DNA of 64,000 nt, from assembly GCA_964423225.1 (NCBI GenBank), contig CAYREE010000001.1:17419-81418 (forward strand), read 5' to 3'. Each line of letters opens with the position of its first letter. Positions within the stretch are counted from its first letter, which is position 1. This DNA comes from an uncultured archaeon (lineage in GTDB: Archaea; Altiarchaeota; Altiarchaeia; IMC4; SCGC-AAA252-I15). Shown piece by piece: positions 19,979 to 24,183 of this stretch. The notes beneath the pieces are model-generated. The model saw nothing but the letters and a program-made list of their open reading frames with translations, searched no databases and was not told where the DNA came from. Made by a program: the position numbers and the translations under genes.

Positions 19979-20695
19979 ATGGATATCAACGAGAGGATAA
20001 AGGAGATCGAGGACGAGATCGAGAAAACACCCTATAACAAGGCTAGCCAACAGCATATTGGAAAACTCAAAGCCAAACTCTCCCACCTCAGGGAAAAGCT
20101 GATCAAAGCATCCTCTAAAAAGGGTTCTGGCGTAGGATTCGGTGTGAAAAAGACAGGGCATGCAACAGCCATACTCATTGGACTGCCTTCAGTCGGAAAA
20201 TCCACACTCCTTAATAGGATCACAAACGCCCAGTCAGAGGTTGGAAGCTATGATTTCACAACCCTTGACGTCGTCCCAGGAATGTTACAGCATAAAGACT
20301 TGAATGTGCAGATACTTGATCTTCCCGGGATCATTGTAGGCGCATCAAGGGGAAAGGGCAGGGGTAGGGAGGTCCTATCAATGGTCAGAAACACCGACCT
20401 CATAATCATAATGTTGGATATTTTCAGAACCGACGTACTAGAAGCCATCAAAAAGGAATTATACGGTGTTGGAGTAAGACTAGATCAAAAACCACCCAAT
20501 GTAAGCATTAAAAAGATGCTAAAAGGGGGGGTAACACTCACGACAACCATAAAGAATCCAAAGCTCGATATTGAAGAGGCAAGAGCAGTCCTAAATGAAT
20601 ACGGTATTCATAATGCAGATGTGACACTAAGACAAAACATTGATGTGGATCAATTCATCGATGCAGGCCTGGGTAACAGGGAATACAAACACTAA
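19979..20695 (+). CDS. DRG-family (Obg-like) GTPase, N-terminal fragment with G1-G3, ending at an in-frame TAA
   Basis: Contains MDINERIKEIEDEIEKTPYNKASQQHIGKLKAKL, G1 GLPSVGKST, G2 FTTL and G3 DLPGII. The ORF stops right after GNREYKH, where NKxD should follow. Confidence 0.75.
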   Translation: MDINERIKEIEDEIEKTPYNKASQQHIGKLKAKLSHLREKLIKASSKKGSGVGFGVKKTGHATAILIGLPSVGKSTLLNRITNAQSEVGSYDFTTLDVVPGMLQHKDLNVQILDLPGIIVGASRGKGRGREVLSMVRNTDLIIIMLDIFRTDVLEAIKKELYGVGVRLDQKPPNVSIKKMLKGGVTLTTTIKNPKLDIEEARAVLNEYGIHNADVTLRQNIDVDQFIDAGLGNREYKH

Positions 20696-20788
20696 ATACA
20701 ACTATAAAATAAAAACCAAATCCAAAATAAACGAAACAAAAACAACAAAAAAAAGAAGAAAAAAGACTTCCCATTCAAACACATACCC

Positions 20789-21088
20789 ATGTCTGCTGAT
20801 AAGGACCCTGACCTTGAACACATAAAGGATGAGATAGTGAAGAAGATCGATGTAATGAGGATATTCCTAAAGCCACAAGGTGAAAAACCAGACCTGGACG
20901 AACCGCTCATAATAAAGACTGGATCAACTGTAAAAGACTTATGCAAATCACTTCATCATGATTTCCTAAAGGATTTCAGATACGCACTCCTATGGGGCGA
21001 TTATGCAAAACATGAAGGACAACACATAGGATTAAAACACAAACTCCACGACGGAGACATCGTCTCAATAATAAAAAAAATAGGATAA
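20789..21088 (+). CDS. DRG-family GTPase, C-terminal fragment (G5 plus TGS domain), in the same frame as 19979..20695
   Basis: MSADKDPDLEHIKDEIVKKIDVMRIFLKPQGEKPDLDEPLIIKTGSTVKDLCKSLHHDFLKDFRYALLWG... is the typical DRG C-terminus with its TGS domain. Confidence 0.7.
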   Translation: MSADKDPDLEHIKDEIVKKIDVMRIFLKPQGEKPDLDEPLIIKTGSTVKDLCKSLHHDFLKDFRYALLWGDYAKHEGQHIGLKHKLHDGDIVSIIKKIG

Positions 21089-21132
21089 ACAAGACATATA
21101 TAATAAAAAAACGCATAGTTTAGTGAATAGTT

Positions 21133-21783
21133 ATGAGAATATATCCCGCACTACTATTGATAACAGCGATAATACTTGTCTCAGGTTGCCTATGCTGTAC
21201 AGGCGGTAGTGACGATAAGGAACCAGTTGGCGGGAACGAGGCTAGGTGTCAGGTCCCGTACATGGAGTTTGCAGATGCTTGTTGTCTTGATGCGAATGCG
21301 AACAGGATCTGTGATACTGATGAGGCAACAACCACGTTGAAGGCGGCTACGACCACGCTAGCGGCGGTAACGACCACACAGCAGCCCGTCCCGGAGACGA
21401 CGATAACTATCATGGAGTCGACTACGACTCTAGCTCCTACAACAACGTTAAAGGCTATTAGAGGTTGTGTTGAGAAGGCGGGTTATGATCCTGACCAGGT
21501 GATCTTCGTCTATGCGAATACTTGCGGTAGGAAGTATTTGGGGGATGTTTCGAATTATGAGTCGCGTAAGGGAGTGAAGATCACGCGATTGGACATATCT
21601 CCACCACAAAAACCAGGGGAAACAGAGGTGTTAGAGTGCTTTTATGGTAAAGCCCATAAAGGCAATACGCATATAATATATAGTTGTCCTAAGTTCCTCT
21701 GCCCGATAACAGGAGATATGTACGAGTATAGGGCGGGAATGTTCTCTTCGAAACTGGCTGGATTCGTGAAGAAATGTGTATAA
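21133..21783 (+). CDS. Cys/Thr-rich putative lipoprotein (paralog 1)
   Basis: Signal peptide plus lipobox-like LVSGC. It has a CC..DAN.N.ICD.DE motif, a Thr-rich linker, and a C-terminal Cys-containing domain ending GFVKKCV. Confidence 0.55.
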   Translation: MRIYPALLLITAIILVSGCLCCTGGSDDKEPVGGNEARCQVPYMEFADACCLDANANRICDTDEATTTLKAATTTLAAVTTTQQPVPETTITIMESTTTLAPTTTLKAIRGCVEKAGYDPDQVIFVYANTCGRKYLGDVSNYESRKGVKITRLDISPPQKPGETEVLECFYGKAHKGNTHIIYSCPKFLCPITGDMYEYRAGMFSSKLAGFVKKCV

Positions 21784-21879
21784 GACCAAGGATTAGAGGG
21801 AGAATTAGTTATTTGGTTGTTATTTTCCCAGTACTCTCACTATGTACGGCTTTTTAAACACGGTTTCGAATTATCTATC

Positions 21880-22311
21880 ATGGTAGAGCGCGTTGATGTT
21901 GGCTTAGACAAGTCTAGGCTTTATCCTCTTATTCTAGTTGATGTCGCTGGGGAGATAACGGGTACTACAAGACTGCACAAGCTAATGTTCATCCTACAAC
22001 AGGAGTACCAAGTTCCCATACTCCAGAAATTCATCAAGTACCATTATGGGCCGTTCTCATCAGAGTTGAGGGAGGATATGAATTTTTTCATTGAAAACGG
22101 CTTAATCGAGCAGTATTCCGAGGATCTGGGCGAGGATATGGATGGATTCCCTGTTAACAGGACGAATTATAGGATATCTAATAAGGGGAAAGAGATTGTC
22201 GTGAAGTCTTTCTCAAATGAGGAACGGAAGCCTTTTATGAAAGTGGTTGATGAATGGGGATCTAAGCCATTAAAGGAATTGATAAAACACGCTAAGTCCT
22301 TAATCAGCTAG
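21880..22311 (+). CDS. YwgA / Panacea (DUF4065)-like winged-helix protein
   Basis: TGTTRLHKLMFILQQEY...KYHYGPFSSELREDMNFFIENGLIEQ matches the (T)-LhKL.f....Y.YGP.S.EL..d...l...Gli pattern. The ATG at 21880 is preferred over the TTG at 21817; a TTTTTAAA box lies about 25 nt upstream. Confidence 0.5.
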   Translation: MVERVDVGLDKSRLYPLILVDVAGEITGTTRLHKLMFILQQEYQVPILQKFIKYHYGPFSSELREDMNFFIENGLIEQYSEDLGEDMDGFPVNRTNYRISNKGKEIVVKSFSNEERKPFMKVVDEWGSKPLKELIKHAKSLIS

Positions 22312-22319
22312 GTTTAAAA

Positions 22320-23375
22320 TTGAATCCAAAACTTCTTGAAGAACAGTTACATCATTTTTCTGGAAAAATTGAGGAACTTGACATTGGCGATAAAAAACTG
22401 TATTTTATCGCCGATGATGTCGGGGATGAGAGGGCTGAGTATCTGAGATTGATAGGTAAGGATCGATTAAATGCAATAACCGACTCCATGATCAGGGACA
22501 ACAGGTTTAGGGATTTTATGCTCGTGAACCTGCAGAACATATTTCGATATCTTAGAAAGTCGAATATTGGACCCAGGAATTTTAAGTATTCCTGTATTAT
22601 TGACAAACAGGAGGGTGAGGGAATATATGAGGTGACAACGCCAGATTATATTGGATTTATCGATGGTGATGTAGAGGAGTCTGTGCTCGAATGGTCTAAT
22701 CCCCAGATGATAGATTTTATCAGAGATTTTGGAATTCAATTCCAGAGGGATATAAGTATCCTTAGATATGGTAACCAATACCAGACTGACAGGATCAGCA
22801 TAAAGAAGGACATAATAGACCAAGTGGAGAAATTAACTGGAGTATGTGGTTTTTCATCTGACAAAATATTCCTATCAGATAGGGTCGCTCTTATCAGAGA
22901 TTCTTTTCAAAATGAAAAATCGAGGACATTCCTCTCAGCATGGCAGTTGAATATATTCTTCGAGCAGTTTATTGCAAAATTTATCGAAACGAACACTACT
23001 GCAAAATGCATTACAAACAAGAATATCTGCATACTTCCAACCAAAAAAACAGTGAAAGACGAGGAATATACCAATGGTTATCTGGAATTAGATGTCATAG
23101 GCTATGACGAAAAAGAAAGTGAACTATTCGTAATAGAATGCAAAAACGGGAATATAGGCGAATCCGAGGTCTCAAAATTCCTCGGTAGAACCAGATTAAT
23201 AGAGTCCACATATGATATAGTTATAGATAAGAAGATAATCATTGGAACCCGATATCTAGATCGGTTTTTCACCCCAATCAAACCAGGTATATCAATACTC
23301 GACATCCACTGGTTCGACCAAAAAGATTACAACACGAAATGTTATAAAGAATTCAAGAATTACTTAAAAAACTAA
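22320..23375 (+). CDS. Hypothetical protein with a C-terminal PD-(D/E)xK (restriction-endonuclease/DUF234-like) domain
   Basis: 351 aa with a TTG start 9 nt after the previous stop. YLELDVIGYDEKESELFVIECKNGNIGESEVSKFLGR gives D258...E273-x-K275. No motif was recognised in the N-terminal ~250 aa. Confidence 0.5.
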   Translation: MNPKLLEEQLHHFSGKIEELDIGDKKLYFIADDVGDERAEYLRLIGKDRLNAITDSMIRDNRFRDFMLVNLQNIFRYLRKSNIGPRNFKYSCIIDKQEGEGIYEVTTPDYIGFIDGDVEESVLEWSNPQMIDFIRDFGIQFQRDISILRYGNQYQTDRISIKKDIIDQVEKLTGVCGFSSDKIFLSDRVALIRDSFQNEKSRTFLSAWQLNIFFEQFIAKFIETNTTAKCITNKNICILPTKKTVKDEEYTNGYLELDVIGYDEKESELFVIECKNGNIGESEVSKFLGRTRLIESTYDIVIDKKIIIGTRYLDRFFTPIKPGISILDIHWFDQKDYNTKCYKEFKNYLKN

Positions 23376-23398
23376 TGATTAATATAAAAACGCGCCTT

Positions 23399-23488
23399 CT
23401 ATGCCCGACAACCGGAAAGGTAGAGGAAGTCGATGGTAGAAGGCCTGTAGCATCCCAGATGGGTGGATTCGTGAACAAATGCGTATAG
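23399..23488 (+). pseudogene. 3' relic of a third lipoprotein paralog
   Basis: Reads LCPTTGKVEEVDGRRPVASQMGGFVNKCV*. Compare the C-terminus of paralog 1, LCPITGDMYEYRAGMFSSKLAGFVKKCV*. No matching upstream coding sequence is present. Confidence 0.55.
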
Positions 23489-23583: not shown

Positions 23584-24183
23584 ATGTACAAACAAATCGC
23601 GATTATATTTGTTATAGGATTGTTTTCAGGCTGTATTTGCTGTAGTAGCCTTGGGATCGGGGTGGATGATGTAAGCTGTCCTGAAGGAACGGTCTTAGTA
23701 GGGGAGATATGTTGTATTGACGCTGATGAAAATAGTATCTGTGATGAAACAGAGCAGACAACGACCACAACAACTGTTTCGACAACGACGTCCACTTCAA
23801 CGACAACTACTACAACTGGCACGACCACAACAACACAATCCACTTCCACGACGCTTTACGTGACTAGATGTGTAAGGCAATTCCAGGTGAGGGCGGGTGA
23901 AGTCGTATTCCTATATGATTTCAGGTCACATGCATCTCTTGTCAACACAGTCAACCATATTGGATTAAGATTCGAGAAACTAGACTTGTCCTTCAAATCA
24001 GCAAGAGAAAAAAGCATTTTAAAATGCTTCAATATCGAGCCTTATTCAGAAATACCCCTCGCAATGTTCCTATGCGCTGAGAACAATGAGAGAATGATAA
24101 TCGAAAAAGGCAAGTTCCAGGGAGCAAGCGAAAAGATCAGAGAATTCTATTTTGGATGTCAGAACGCACTAGATGAAAGATGA
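23584..24183 (+). CDS. Cys/Thr-rich putative lipoprotein (paralog 2)
   Basis: Has the lipobox-like LFSGC, the motif CPEGTVLVGEICCIDADENSICDETE, a poly-Thr/Ser linker, and a C-terminal domain alignable to paralog 1. Its stop overlaps the traB-like start (ATGA). Confidence 0.55.
   Translation: MYKQIAIIFVIGLFSGCICCSSLGIGVDDVSCPEGTVLVGEICCIDADENSICDETEQTTTTTTVSTTTSTSTTTTTTGTTTTTQSTSTTLYVTRCVRQFQVRAGEVVFLYDFRSHASLVNTVNHIGLRFEKLDLSFKSAREKSILKCFNIEPYSEIPLAMFLCAENNERMIIEKGKFQGASEKIREFYFGCQNALDER

What the first reader, a model, noticed from the sequence alone, without database searches (positions are those of the whole stretch)
21784..23488. Two-gene cassette (YwgA/Panacea-like wHTH + PD-(D/E)xK nuclease-fold protein) that displaced a lipoprotein paralog: candidate new toxin-antitoxin or defence module
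What the sequence shows:
- 21880..22311 encodes a 143-aa protein with TRLHKLMFILQ...YHYGPFSSELREDMNFFIENGLI.
- Nine nt downstream, a 351-aa protein ends in LELDVIGYDEKESELFVIECKNG (D258, E273, K275). This is a textbook PD-(D/E)xK core in the DUF234-like arrangement. It sits behind about 250 aa with no recognisable motif.
- The pair lies between two paralogous Cys/Thr-rich lipoprotein genes.
- It is followed directly by a 90-nt relic (23399..23488) matching only the last 29 codons of the upstream paralog: LCPTTGK...GGFVNKCV* versus LCPITGD...AGFVKKCV*.

Established knowledge: Panacea/DUF4065-type domains act as promiscuous antitoxins paired with many unrelated toxins, and PD-(D/E)xK domains are common toxin or defence effectors.

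Inference: the cassette was inserted into, or replaced most of, a third lipoprotein paralog. It is a nuclease-based two-component module whose architecture I do not recognise as described.
Basis: partly seen in the sequence, partly recalled or inferred. Interest (0 to 1): 0.7.

Follow-up and report, generated by a model that had tools for sequence, protein, structure and literature searches.

The report
Conserved archaeal wHTH–nuclease gene pair
A rare two-gene operon found so far only in tiny symbiotic (DPANN) archaea pairs a YwgA/Panacea-like small protein with a previously unclassified nuclease; it looks like a toxin-antitoxin or anti-virus module, but nobody has tested it.

Summary
Window 21880-22311 encodes a 143-aa protein and 22320-23375 a 351-aa protein. 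They sit between two paralogous lipoprotein-like genes, followed by a genuine 29-codon copy of the upstream paralogue's tail.

The small protein folds as a winged helix (pLDDT 83). It belongs to a YwgA-like family that touches Pfam Panacea only below threshold.

The large protein defines an unannotated family: 26 clusters among 1.8 billion representatives, and every named member is archaeal. E215, E256, D258, E273 and K275 are invariant. Members give weak matches to DUF234 and to CARF-fused PD-(D/E)xK nuclease models. The N-terminal ~200 aa match nothing, and AlphaFold failed on this protein.

The two genes are immediate neighbours (0-34 nt apart) in 11 of 12 distinct contexts, down to about 25% identity, and they co-diverge. 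Contexts vary from housekeeping genes to a position inside a restriction-modification operon, beside insertion sequences, or beside a phage-type topoisomerase.

Best reading (about 0.45): a TA-like or abortive-infection module in which the YwgA-like protein restrains the nuclease. Function, toxicity and the "displaced paralogue" history remain inference.

Verdict: a new variant of a known kind, of moderate interest.

The parts
21851..21858 (+). Putative archaeal TATA-like box (TTTTTAAA), 21 nt before ATG 21880, implying a leaderless transcript that belongs to the cassette itself
   Evidence: Read directly from the sequence. This is inference only. The promoter scan tool covers bacterial sigma-70 sites and is not informative for archaea.
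21880..22311 (+). Gene A: 143-aa YwgA/Panacea-like winged-helix protein, the proposed antitoxin or regulatory partner
   Evidence: - ORF confirmed.
- AlphaFold2 model has pLDDT 83 and a winged-helix topology plus three C-terminal helices.
- Foldseek finds weak PadR/RTP matches in the PDB. The best viral match is a Sulfolobus ellipsoid virus 1 protein, E 8.6e-4, TM 0.64.
- Profile hits: Pfam SocA_Panacea E 0.004, below threshold; PADLOC PDC-M19A 5e-9 and DarG C-terminal region 3.5e-6; phrog_14939 1e-12.
- Invariant across 10 homologues: T30, K34, F37, F51, Y54, Y56, G57, P58, S60, G103, W126.
22320..22934 (+). Gene B, N-terminal region (aa 1-205): conserved domain of unknown fold, with motifs FR(N/D)F-x-(L/C)VN-x-Q at aa 63-72 and G112
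   Evidence: - Conserved across 27 family members.
- No Pfam, NCBIfam, PHROG or PDB-sequence match.
- No internal duplication and no similarity to gene A by hhalign.
- One member (P0026) gives an extended weak match, E 2.9e-5, to a PADLOC CARF_PDDEXK model that reaches into this region.
22935..23375 (+). Gene B, C-terminal region (aa 206-351): PD-(D/E)xK nuclease-like domain with candidate catalytic residues E215, E256, D258, E273 and K275
   Evidence: - These five residues are the only invariant columns in the 27-sequence alignment.
- The window protein matches PADLOC CARF_PDDEXK at 6e-5 over aa 212-288 and Pfam DUF234 at 0.0096 over aa 245-285.
- Among family members, 6 match DUF234. Four CARF_PDDEXK-type models are matched by 5, 4, 3 and 2 members respectively (best 1.3e-8). 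Single members match Cas4, NERD, PDDEXK_10 and PD_DExK.
- DUF234 is classed as a PD-(D/E)XK family by Steczkiewicz et al. 2012 (PMC3424549).
23375..23488 (+). Relic of a lipoprotein-paralogue 3' end (homology 23399-23488). It is also a 37-codon open frame whose ATG overlaps the gene B stop codon.
   Evidence: It is absent downstream of the pair in all other loci, so it is not part of the conserved module.
21133..21783 (+). Context: upstream Cys/Thr-rich lipoprotein-like paralogue (216 aa), whose tail is the relic's closest relative
23584..24183 (+). Context: downstream Cys/Thr-rich lipoprotein-like paralogue (199 aa)

Best explanation
The two genes form one operon that behaves as an accessory, occasionally mobile, conflict module of DPANN archaea, of the toxin-antitoxin or abortive-infection type.

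- **Effector (inferred):** gene B is a Mg-dependent PD-(D/E)xK nuclease whose ~200-aa N-terminal domain docks the partner or senses a trigger.
- **Partner (inferred):** gene A is a YwgA/Panacea-like winged-helix protein, made in step with the nuclease from the same transcript. It holds the nuclease inactive by direct binding and may also repress the operon.
- **Trigger (inferred):** loss, titration or modification of the small protein, for example during virus infection, frees the nuclease to cut nucleic acid and stop growth.

Shown here: the gene pair, its strict conservation and co-divergence, the invariant nuclease residues, the winged-helix fold, and the varied genomic contexts. Binding, toxicity, substrate and trigger are all inferred.
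For: **Adjacency**
- The A-then-B order with gaps of 0-34 nt is confirmed in 11 distinct contexts, down to 25-30% identity.
- Pairwise identities of A and B co-vary across loci, r = 0.88.

**Active nuclease**
- The only invariant columns of the B family are E215, E256, D258, E273 and K275.
- Repeated weak matches point to PD-(D/E)xK families that serve as defence effectors: CARF_PDDEXK, Cas4, NERD and DUF234.

**Partner family**
- A is YwgA-like and borders on Panacea and the DarG C-terminal region. Panacea is an experimentally shown, direct-binding antitoxin domain paired with many toxins (PMC8832971).
- Relatives occur in archaeal viruses and conjugative-plasmid genes.
- A more distant relative sits in a BREX/GmrSD island.

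**Accessory and mobile behaviour**
- Only 26 clusters exist in 1.8 billion representatives.
- Contexts all differ. They include a position between a HaeIII-like restriction enzyme and its C5 methylase plus Vsr, with a DDE transposase nearby. Others have an rve integrase 2.5 kb away, an adjacent HNH restriction-like gene, or an adjacent phage-type topoisomerase.
- One orphan A gene lacks B, as is seen for orphan antitoxins.
- In the window, the pair sits where a paralogue has been truncated.

**Precedent**
- TA-type modules in DPANN typically lie in housekeeping contexts (PMC6393860).
Against: - No experiment has been done, and no structure exists for B: AlphaFold gave pLDDT 31.
- A does not reach Pfam's Panacea threshold.
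- B is large for a type II toxin (351 aa) and carries a conserved extra domain.
- Most contexts are housekeeping, and only about 3 of 9 contexts have restriction-modification-type genes within 6 kb.
- No conserved palindromic operator lies upstream of A.
- The cassette's GC and GC3 do not differ from its neighbours, so it is not a recent arrival.
- No copies were found in viral contigs or plasmids.
- Strict co-divergence without partner swapping is unlike the 'hyperpromiscuous' behaviour described for Panacea.
Confidence: 0.45

Rival explanations
1. A DNA-processing enzyme with a DNA-binding subunit. The winged-helix protein acts as transcription regulator or targeting subunit for a nuclease working in restriction without a cognate methylase (type IV-like), repair/recombination, or scavenging of foreign DNA by nucleotide-dependent DPANN cells. 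In this reading it is not a poison-antidote pair.
For: - A has a PadR/RTP-like winged-helix fold.
- Most contexts are housekeeping.
- The pair is ameliorated in composition and co-diverges like a stable two-subunit enzyme.
- It sits inside or beside restriction-modification genes in L017, L024 and L026.
Against: - The most conserved surface of A is the long H2-H3 loop, YxYGPxS, the YwgA/Panacea hallmark, rather than a recognition helix.
- The family is very rare and patchy for a repair function.
- No methylase partner is conserved.
- The orphan A gene in L008/L009 fits an antidote better than an enzyme subunit.
Confidence: 0.27
2. A ligand-activated Can2/Card1-type nuclease. The N-terminal domain of B is a highly diverged CARF-like sensor that binds a small signalling nucleotide and switches on the C-terminal PD-(D/E)xK domain. 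A is an accessory regulator.
For: - The best profile matches of the family are to PADLOC CARF_PDDEXK models of the same overall length (361-364 positions against 330-365 aa).
- P0026 matches one such model over aa 73-328, E 2.9e-5, and another over the nuclease domain at 1.3e-8.
Against: - Only one of 27 members extends beyond the nuclease domain.
- No Pfam or NCBIfam CARF family is hit.
- No type III CRISPR gene, cyclase or CRISPR array is near the pair in any context, nor in the 64-kb window.
- The conserved partner is a YwgA-like protein, which Can2/Card1 loci do not have.
Confidence: 0.12
3. A decaying remnant with no current function: a once-mobile cassette that landed in a lipoprotein gene array and is drifting.
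For: The relic next to it shows the locus has suffered rearrangement. A nearby gene in the window appears broken.
Against: - Both ORFs are intact in all nine full-length loci compared, and every invariant catalytic residue is present in the window copy.
- Four metagenome copies are identical across the cassette except for one substitution, which lies in the upstream lipoprotein gene.
- The nearby 'broken' gene is most likely an assembly error.
Confidence: 0.03

Closest known systems
PanA-PanT toxin-antitoxin pairs (Panacea/DUF4065, Pfam PF13274; Kurata et al. 2022, PMC8832971)
   Same: A small protein with the KLxKLxF ... YGP-type motif family is encoded immediately next to, and co-directional with, an unrelated larger effector gene. 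It occurs in archaea and in viruses. The proposed logic of direct neutralisation is the same.
   Different: - Gene A is below the Pfam threshold (18.5 against 25.7 bits) and groups with YwgA-like or MJ1567-like proteins.
- The main text of that paper mentions nucleases only among accessory third genes, not among the toxins it names; none of the terms PDDEXK, endonuclease or DUF234 occurs in it.
- This pair co-diverges without partner swapping.
Can2/Card1 CARF-nuclease effectors of type III CRISPR (PADLOC CARF_PDDEXK models)
   Same: The nuclease domain gives the best profile similarity. Overall protein length and the C-terminal placement of the D...ExK core are alike.
   Different: No recognisable CARF domain and no CRISPR or cyclase association. 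A conserved YwgA-like partner gene is present instead.
DUF234 (PF03008), the PD-(D/E)xK domain at the C-terminus of archaeal AAA ATPases
   Same: Six of 27 family members match the last ~40 positions of the DUF234 model, which carry the D...ExK core.
   Different: All matches have weak E-values (best 2.4e-4; the window protein scores 16.7 bits against a 22.5-bit cut-off). The N-terminal ATPase that usually precedes DUF234 is replaced by an unrelated ~200-aa domain.
PADLOC candidate system PDC-M19 (component A) and phage family phrog_14939
   Same: Their N-terminal ~110-130 positions match gene A better than any curated family does (5e-9, and 1e-12 to 3e-17).
   Different: Those proteins are about 300 aa with an extra C-terminal domain. 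No PDC-M19 model matches gene B, so the system is not PDC-M19. Both are of unknown function.
DarTG (the C-terminal, DarT-binding part of antitoxin DarG)
   Same: Gene A matches DarG models over their positions ~178-248 (NCBIfam 1.4e-4, PADLOC 3.5e-6).
   Different: There is no macrodomain and no DarT-like ADP-ribosyltransferase. The score is far below the NCBIfam cut-off (21 against 250 bits).

Membership tests
Panacea / SocA-like antitoxin domain (Pfam PF13274) | Score at or above Pfam's gathering threshold (25.7 bits) | tested here: not met
   - The window protein scores 18.5 bits, E 0.004, although the match covers profile positions 3-105 of 113.
- Six of ten family members match, with a best E-value of 0.0012.
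- A few more distant relatives do carry PF13274.
Panacea / SocA-like antitoxin domain (Pfam PF13274) | Conserved adjacency to a putative toxin gene | tested here: met
   Adjacent to the nuclease-family gene in 11 of 12 contexts.
Panacea / SocA-like antitoxin domain (Pfam PF13274) | Neutralises its cognate toxin, by direct binding or as a proteolytic adaptor | not testable with these tools
   Requires co-expression and pull-down experiments.
YwgA-like proteins (name given by JGI to homologues) | Significant profile similarity to proteins annotated YwgA | tested here: met
   A profile of 10 family members retrieves proteins named 'uncharacterized protein YwgA' at E 7e-33 to 1e-12. The names are the source's own and are not curated.
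PD-(D/E)xK nuclease superfamily | Conserved acidic/lysine catalytic core, D ... (D/E)xK, on consecutive strands | tested here: met
   D258, E273 and K275, together with E215 and E256, are the only invariant columns among 27 sequences that are 20-48% identical to the window protein.
PD-(D/E)xK nuclease superfamily | Profile similarity to established member families | tested here: inconclusive
   - Window protein: CARF_PDDEXK 6e-5 and DUF234 0.0096, the latter below the Pfam cut-off.
- Across members: best 1.3e-8 to CARF_PDDEXK, plus Cas4, NERD, PDDEXK_10 and PD_DExK.
- The matches are consistent with each other but individually weak.
- PDB sequence searches found nothing.
PD-(D/E)xK nuclease superfamily | The alpha-beta-beta-beta-alpha-beta restriction-endonuclease-like fold | tested here: inconclusive
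   The AlphaFold2 model from a 2-sequence alignment failed (mean pLDDT 31).
DUF234 (PF03008) | Score above the gathering threshold and the usual N-terminal archaeal AAA ATPase | tested here: not met
   The score is 16.7 bits against a cut-off of 22.5. No ATPase domain is found in any member.
Can2/Card1 CARF-nuclease effectors | N-terminal CARF sensor domain | tested here: inconclusive
   No CARF family is hit in Pfam or NCBIfam. One member extends into the pre-nuclease part of a PADLOC CARF_PDDEXK model, E 2.9e-5. No usable structure is available.
Can2/Card1 CARF-nuclease effectors | Association with type III CRISPR-Cas or a signal-producing cyclase | tested here: not met
   None is present in any of the loci examined. 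No CRISPR array is found in the 64-kb window.
Type II toxin-antitoxin systems | Two adjacent co-directional genes in one operon with patchy distribution and varied contexts | tested here: met
   Gaps are 0-34 nt. There are 26 clusters in 1.8 billion representatives. Contexts differ in every lineage.
Type II toxin-antitoxin systems | Toxin arrests growth, antitoxin neutralises it; autoregulation through an operator | not testable with these tools
   No conserved inverted repeat was found upstream of gene A in five loci. That is weak negative evidence only. Toxicity needs an experiment.
Anti-virus defence systems (defence-island criterion) | Enrichment next to known defence genes | tested here: inconclusive
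   - In L017 the pair lies inside a HaeIII-like restriction-modification/Vsr operon.
- In L026 it lies next to an HNH restriction-like gene, and in L024 a type II methylase lies 5 kb away.
- Six other contexts, including the window, are housekeeping or unknown.
- The sample is too small for statistics.
PADLOC candidate system PDC-M19 | Both components present | tested here: not met
   Only the N-terminal 112 of 294 positions of component A are matched by gene A, at 5e-9. No PDC-M19 model matches gene B.

The most novel reading that the evidence does not exclude
The pair is a previously undescribed two-component immune or addiction system known so far only from DPANN archaea. A YwgA/Panacea-like protein would act as both guard and sensor for a nuclease that carries a new type of N-terminal regulatory domain. 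This would be an archaeal counterpart of sensor-antitoxin systems such as CapRel, and a new effector family related to CRISPR ancillary nucleases but uncoupled from CRISPR.
Probability: 0.35. Interest if true: 0.65.

Novelty: new variant of a known kind. Interest (0 to 1): 0.5.

Why it matters
DPANN archaea have tiny genomes and few recognised defence systems. They are reported to be poor in CRISPR and restriction-modification but enriched in compact systems (PMC12988326).

- A conserved, compact nuclease module restricted to them would add to the archaeal immune or addiction repertoire.
- It would define a new protein family that is absent from Pfam and NCBIfam.
- It would extend the reach of YwgA/Panacea-type partner proteins to PD-(D/E)xK effectors.
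- The unknown N-terminal domain could be a new sensor or regulatory fold.

If the pair instead proves to be a DNA-repair or scavenging enzyme, it still annotates part of DPANN 'dark matter'.

Tried and rejected
- **Structure of the nuclease:** AlphaFold2 on a 2-sequence alignment gave pLDDT 31 and was unusable.
- **PDB sequence searches:** profiles of 2 and 27 sequences and the single member P0026 gave nothing, or spurious T-cell-receptor hits.
- **Gene A against PDB sequences:** nothing.
- **hhalign:** no internal duplication in gene B and no relation of its N-terminal domain to gene A.
- **Locus search with the full 27-sequence alignment:** it was too divergent for the search for related loci. 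A 6-sequence subset found 1 locus among GTDB species-representative genomes, 4 metagenome loci and no viral contig.
- **tblastn of gene B against plasmids:** no match.
- **NCBIfam on all 27 members:** nothing relevant.
- **Operator palindrome upstream of gene A in five loci:** none conserved.
- **Compositional foreignness of the cassette:** none.
- **Second copies of either gene in the window:** none.
- **Synteny with PEP synthase as evidence of vertical inheritance:** rejected, because the two neighbouring PEP-utilizers proteins are not orthologues.
- **Literature:** searches for YwgA and PDC-M19 returned nothing useful.
Full report
**1. Observation**

- A 143-aa ORF runs from ATG 21880 to TAG 22311.
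- After an 8-nt spacer, a 351-aa ORF runs from TTG 22320 to TAA 23375.
- Both starts are supported by the N-termini of homologues.
- A TTTTTAAA element lies 21 nt before the ATG. It suggests a promoter of the cassette's own and a leaderless mRNA; this is inference from the sequence.
- The nuclease motif LELDVIGYDEKESELFVIECKNG lies at aa 254-277, with D258, E273 and K275 as stated. Seventy-four residues follow it, so the protein does not literally end there.

The flanking genes 21133-21783 and 23584-24183 are paralogues (29% identity, E 6e-9). Both have lipobox-like N-termini and Thr-rich linkers.

The 'relic' at 23399-23488 is real.
- It scores 57 against the last 29 residues of the upstream paralogue, compared with 23 +/- 4 for shuffles; none of 2000 shuffles reached it.
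- A 31-nt block is 87% identical and ends in register at the stop codon.
- The conserved codons (LCP-TG, GFV-KCV) carry synonymous differences, while the middle is diverged and has an indel. That pattern is expected from a diverged paralogue rather than a fresh duplication.
- Homology stops at the stop codon.
- The relic is also an open 37-codon frame whose ATG overlaps the nuclease stop codon (TAATG). No other locus has such a frame, so it is not part of the module.

**2. The small protein (gene A)**

AlphaFold2 gives a confident model: pLDDT 83, with H1-beta-H2, a long loop, H3, a beta-hairpin wing, and three C-terminal helices.

Structure matches:
- Foldseek places it among PadR/RTP-type winged helices in the PDB, weakly (E ~0.02).
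- Among viral models the best match is an uncharacterised protein of Sulfolobus ellipsoid virus 1 (E 8.6e-4, TM 0.64).

Curated libraries give only sub-threshold or partial matches:

| Library / model | Result |
|---|---|
| Pfam SocA_Panacea | E 0.004, 18.5 bits against a 25.7-bit cut-off, nearly full profile length |
| NCBIfam DarG, C-terminal part | 1.4e-4 |
| PADLOC DarG, C-terminal part | 3.5e-6 |
| PADLOC PDC-M19A, N-terminal third | 5e-9 |
| phrog_14939, N-terminal 130 of 313 positions | 1e-12 to 3e-17 |

A 10-sequence profile retrieves 244 proteins.
- About 60 close clusters are 140-150 aa long.
- Beyond those are proteins that JGI names 'uncharacterized protein YwgA'.
- A few carry PF13274, PF27231 (MJ1567) or PadR.

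tblastn finds stand-alone homologues in lipothrixviruses (AFV3 ORF155a), in Sulfolobus monocaudavirus SMV2, and in a 'conserved conjugative plasmid protein' of Sulfolobales virus YNP1.

The invariant residues are T30, K34, F37, F51, Y54, Y56, G57, P58, S60, G103 and W126. They concentrate in helix 2 and the long loop before helix 3, not in a classic recognition helix.

The label 'YwgA/Panacea-like wHTH' is therefore fair as a description of resemblance. Formal Panacea membership is not met.

**3. The large protein (gene B)**

The word-indexed search found only the identical protein and one homologue at 48% identity. An exhaustive HMM scan of 1.84 billion representatives found 26 clusters, all 266-374 aa except one 192-aa fragment.
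- None has a precomputed Pfam domain or an informative name.
- The named members come from Micrarchaeota, Aenigmarchaeota or 'archaeon'.

In the 27-sequence alignment the only invariant columns are E215, E256, D258, E273 and K275. G112, Q209, C274, N276, F287, G289 and E295 are nearly invariant.

Weak profile matches all point to PD-(D/E)xK nucleases:
- DUF234: 6 members, best 2.4e-4.
- PADLOC CARF_PDDEXK-type models: four models matched by 5, 4, 3 and 2 members, best 1.3e-8.
- Cas4, NERD, PDDEXK_10 and PD_DExK: one member each.
- DUF234 is a recognised PD-(D/E)XK family (PMC3424549).

The N-terminal ~200 aa carry conserved motifs, FR(N/D)F-x-(L/C)VN-x-Q and a G112 strand. They match nothing in Pfam, NCBIfam, PHROGs or PDB sequences. 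They are not a duplicate of the nuclease domain or of gene A.

One member aligns over aa 73-328 to a CARF_PDDEXK model (E 2.9e-5). This keeps a Can2/Card1-like reading alive but does not establish it.

The AlphaFold model, built on a 2-sequence alignment, failed with pLDDT 31. The nuclease fold is therefore supported by motifs and profiles only.

**4. Conserved pairing**

Gene A lies immediately upstream of gene B in each of these contexts:

| Locus | Lineage or setting | Neighbouring genes |
|---|---|---|
| window | unnamed archaeon | lipoprotein-like paralogues, DRG GTPase, TraB |
| L001-L006, L014, L016 | Micrarchaeota | NYN upstream, PEP-utilizers convergent downstream |
| L007 | – | contig ends within gene B |
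| L015 | – | – |
| L017 | – | HaeIII-like restriction enzyme and C5 methylase/Vsr |
| L018 | – | phage-type topoisomerase upstream |
| L019 | 117-kb contig | housekeeping |
| L020 | – | – |
| L021/22 and L024/25 | Aenigmarchaeota | PEP synthase downstream |
| L023 | – | DUF192 downstream |
| L026/27 | – | HNH restriction-like gene upstream |

- Gaps are 0-34 nt, and the pairwise identities of the two proteins co-vary across loci (r = 0.88).
- The one exception is L008/L009. There a gene A homologue at 54% identity has no gene B reading frame downstream, an orphan.

**5. Context**

In the window the pair sits in core chromosome: pyruvate:ferredoxin oxidoreductase, FtsZ, Spt5, ribosomal proteins L11/L1/L10, NFACT, DRG, TraB and AroE.
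- Its GC and GC3 are ordinary.
- There is no second copy and no CRISPR array.

Elsewhere the contexts differ in every lineage.
- In L017 the pair lies between a HaeIII-like restriction enzyme and its C5 methylase plus Vsr, near an ATPase-like gene and a DDE transposase.
- In L004 an rve integrase lies 2.5 kb away and a NYN gene is upstream.
- In L026 an HNH restriction-like gene is adjacent; in L024 a type II methylase lies 5 kb away.
- In L018 a phage-type topoisomerase is adjacent (phrog_6247, 3e-70).
- Other neighbours are housekeeping or unknown and have no PADLOC hits.

This fits an accessory module that moves occasionally. It does not amount to a demonstrated defence-island enrichment. 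TA-type modules in housekeeping contexts have been noted before in DPANN (PMC6393860).

**6. Mechanism**

The reading I commit to (about 0.45) is a TA-like or abortive-infection module.
- Gene B is the nuclease effector.
- Gene A, co-translated from the same operon, restrains it by direct binding, probably through B's N-terminal domain.
- Loss or titration of A releases the nuclease.

Established knowledge behind this is that Panacea-domain antitoxins bind and neutralise many unrelated toxins (PMC8832971). PD-(D/E)xK domains are common toxin and defence effectors.

Shown here: operon structure, co-divergence, invariant catalytic residues, winged-helix fold, rarity and variable context. Inferred: binding, toxicity, substrate and trigger.

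Rivals:
- A nuclease with a DNA-binding or regulatory subunit, working in restriction, repair or DNA scavenging (0.27).
- A diverged, CRISPR-independent Can2/Card1-like ligand-gated nuclease (0.12).
- A functionless remnant (0.03).

**7. Insertion history**

The relic shows that a gene related to the upstream paralogue once ended at 23488. Everything 5' of its last 29 codons is now occupied by the cassette.

Replacement of most of a middle paralogue is the simplest account. I could not find a cassette-free allele: four metagenome contigs from different samples carry the same arrangement. The borders and mechanism therefore remain unknown. The ordinary base composition argues the event is not recent.

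**8. Comparison and novelty**

The pair works like a PanA-PanT pair, but gene A fails the Pfam threshold.
- Gene B's nuclease domain resembles those of Can2/Card1 and DUF234 but lacks their defining N-terminal domains and associations.
- It is not PDC-M19.
- Gene B's family is absent from Pfam and NCBIfam.
- The literature searches found no description of this pairing.

I rate it a new variant of a known kind, a two-gene conflict module. Interest is moderate (0.5): well supported as a real, conserved and uncharacterised module, but functionally untested and of a familiar general logic.

Noticed in passing
window 19979-21088 (differences at 20667-20746); L010 1-625: The DRG-type GTPase gene looks split in the window, 19979-20695 and 20789-21088. 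A stop codon and an A-rich stretch replace the G4 NKxD region. Metagenome contig L010 is otherwise identical but differs at 21 positions, all within these 80 nt. It reads one intact ORF with GNRVYIP...LNKID followed by a poly-Lys run. The window version is most likely a sequence or assembly error next to a homopolymer-rich stretch, not a real split gene.
   Followed up: yes
L004 4227-5747 (-); L021 2695-4974 (+); L024 8541-10823 (+): A gene with a PEP-utilizers swivel domain lies 12-13 nt downstream of the pair in two distant lineages: convergent in Micrarchaeota and co-directional in Aenigmarchaeota. The two proteins are not orthologues, sharing only the swivel domain (38% over 102 aa). This could be coincidence or a functional link; it is unexplained.
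   Followed up: partly
L017 702-5852: In this metagenome contig the pair is wedged between a HaeIII-like restriction endonuclease and its C5 cytosine methylase, followed by a Vsr fragment. An unclassified 378-aa gene and a DDE transposase follow. This is the clearest defence-island or mobile context seen.
   Followed up: partly
L018 237-1268 (-): The gene two positions upstream of the pair matches a phage 'DNA topoisomerase' family (phrog_6247, E 2.7e-70), with a 208-aa gene of unknown function in between. This 3.9-kb contig may therefore belong to a virus or other mobile element.
   Followed up: no
L008 1074-1724; L009 1012-1548: A gene A homologue (P0006, 54% identical) is followed by sequence with stops in all three forward frames and no gene B, making it an orphan partner gene. 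Both contigs are short, so a rearranged gene B further away cannot be excluded.
   Followed up: partly
L029 2980-3447 (AFV3 ORF155a); L030 2977-3282 (SMV2); L028 6250-7438: YwgA-like relatives of gene A occur alone in crenarchaeal viruses. In an MSBL1 archaeon one overlaps a TrmB regulator gene inside a BREX/GmrSD island. In AFV3 the relative directly follows a small 'transcriptional regulator' gene. This suggests the domain is a widespread partner protein in archaeal mobile elements.
   Followed up: partly
window 23375-23488: The relic is an intact 37-codon frame, MINIKTRLLCPTTGKVEEVDGRRPVASQMGGFVNKCV. Its ATG overlaps the nuclease stop codon (TAATG), so it could be translated by coupling. 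It retains both Cys motifs of the paralogue tail. No such frame exists in other loci.
   Followed up: partly
window 21086-21114 and 23365-23393: A 29-nt A/T-rich stretch just upstream of the first lipoprotein gene resembles (72%) the stretch just upstream of the relic. It may be chance in AT-rich DNA or a trace of a shared promoter-like region.
   Followed up: no
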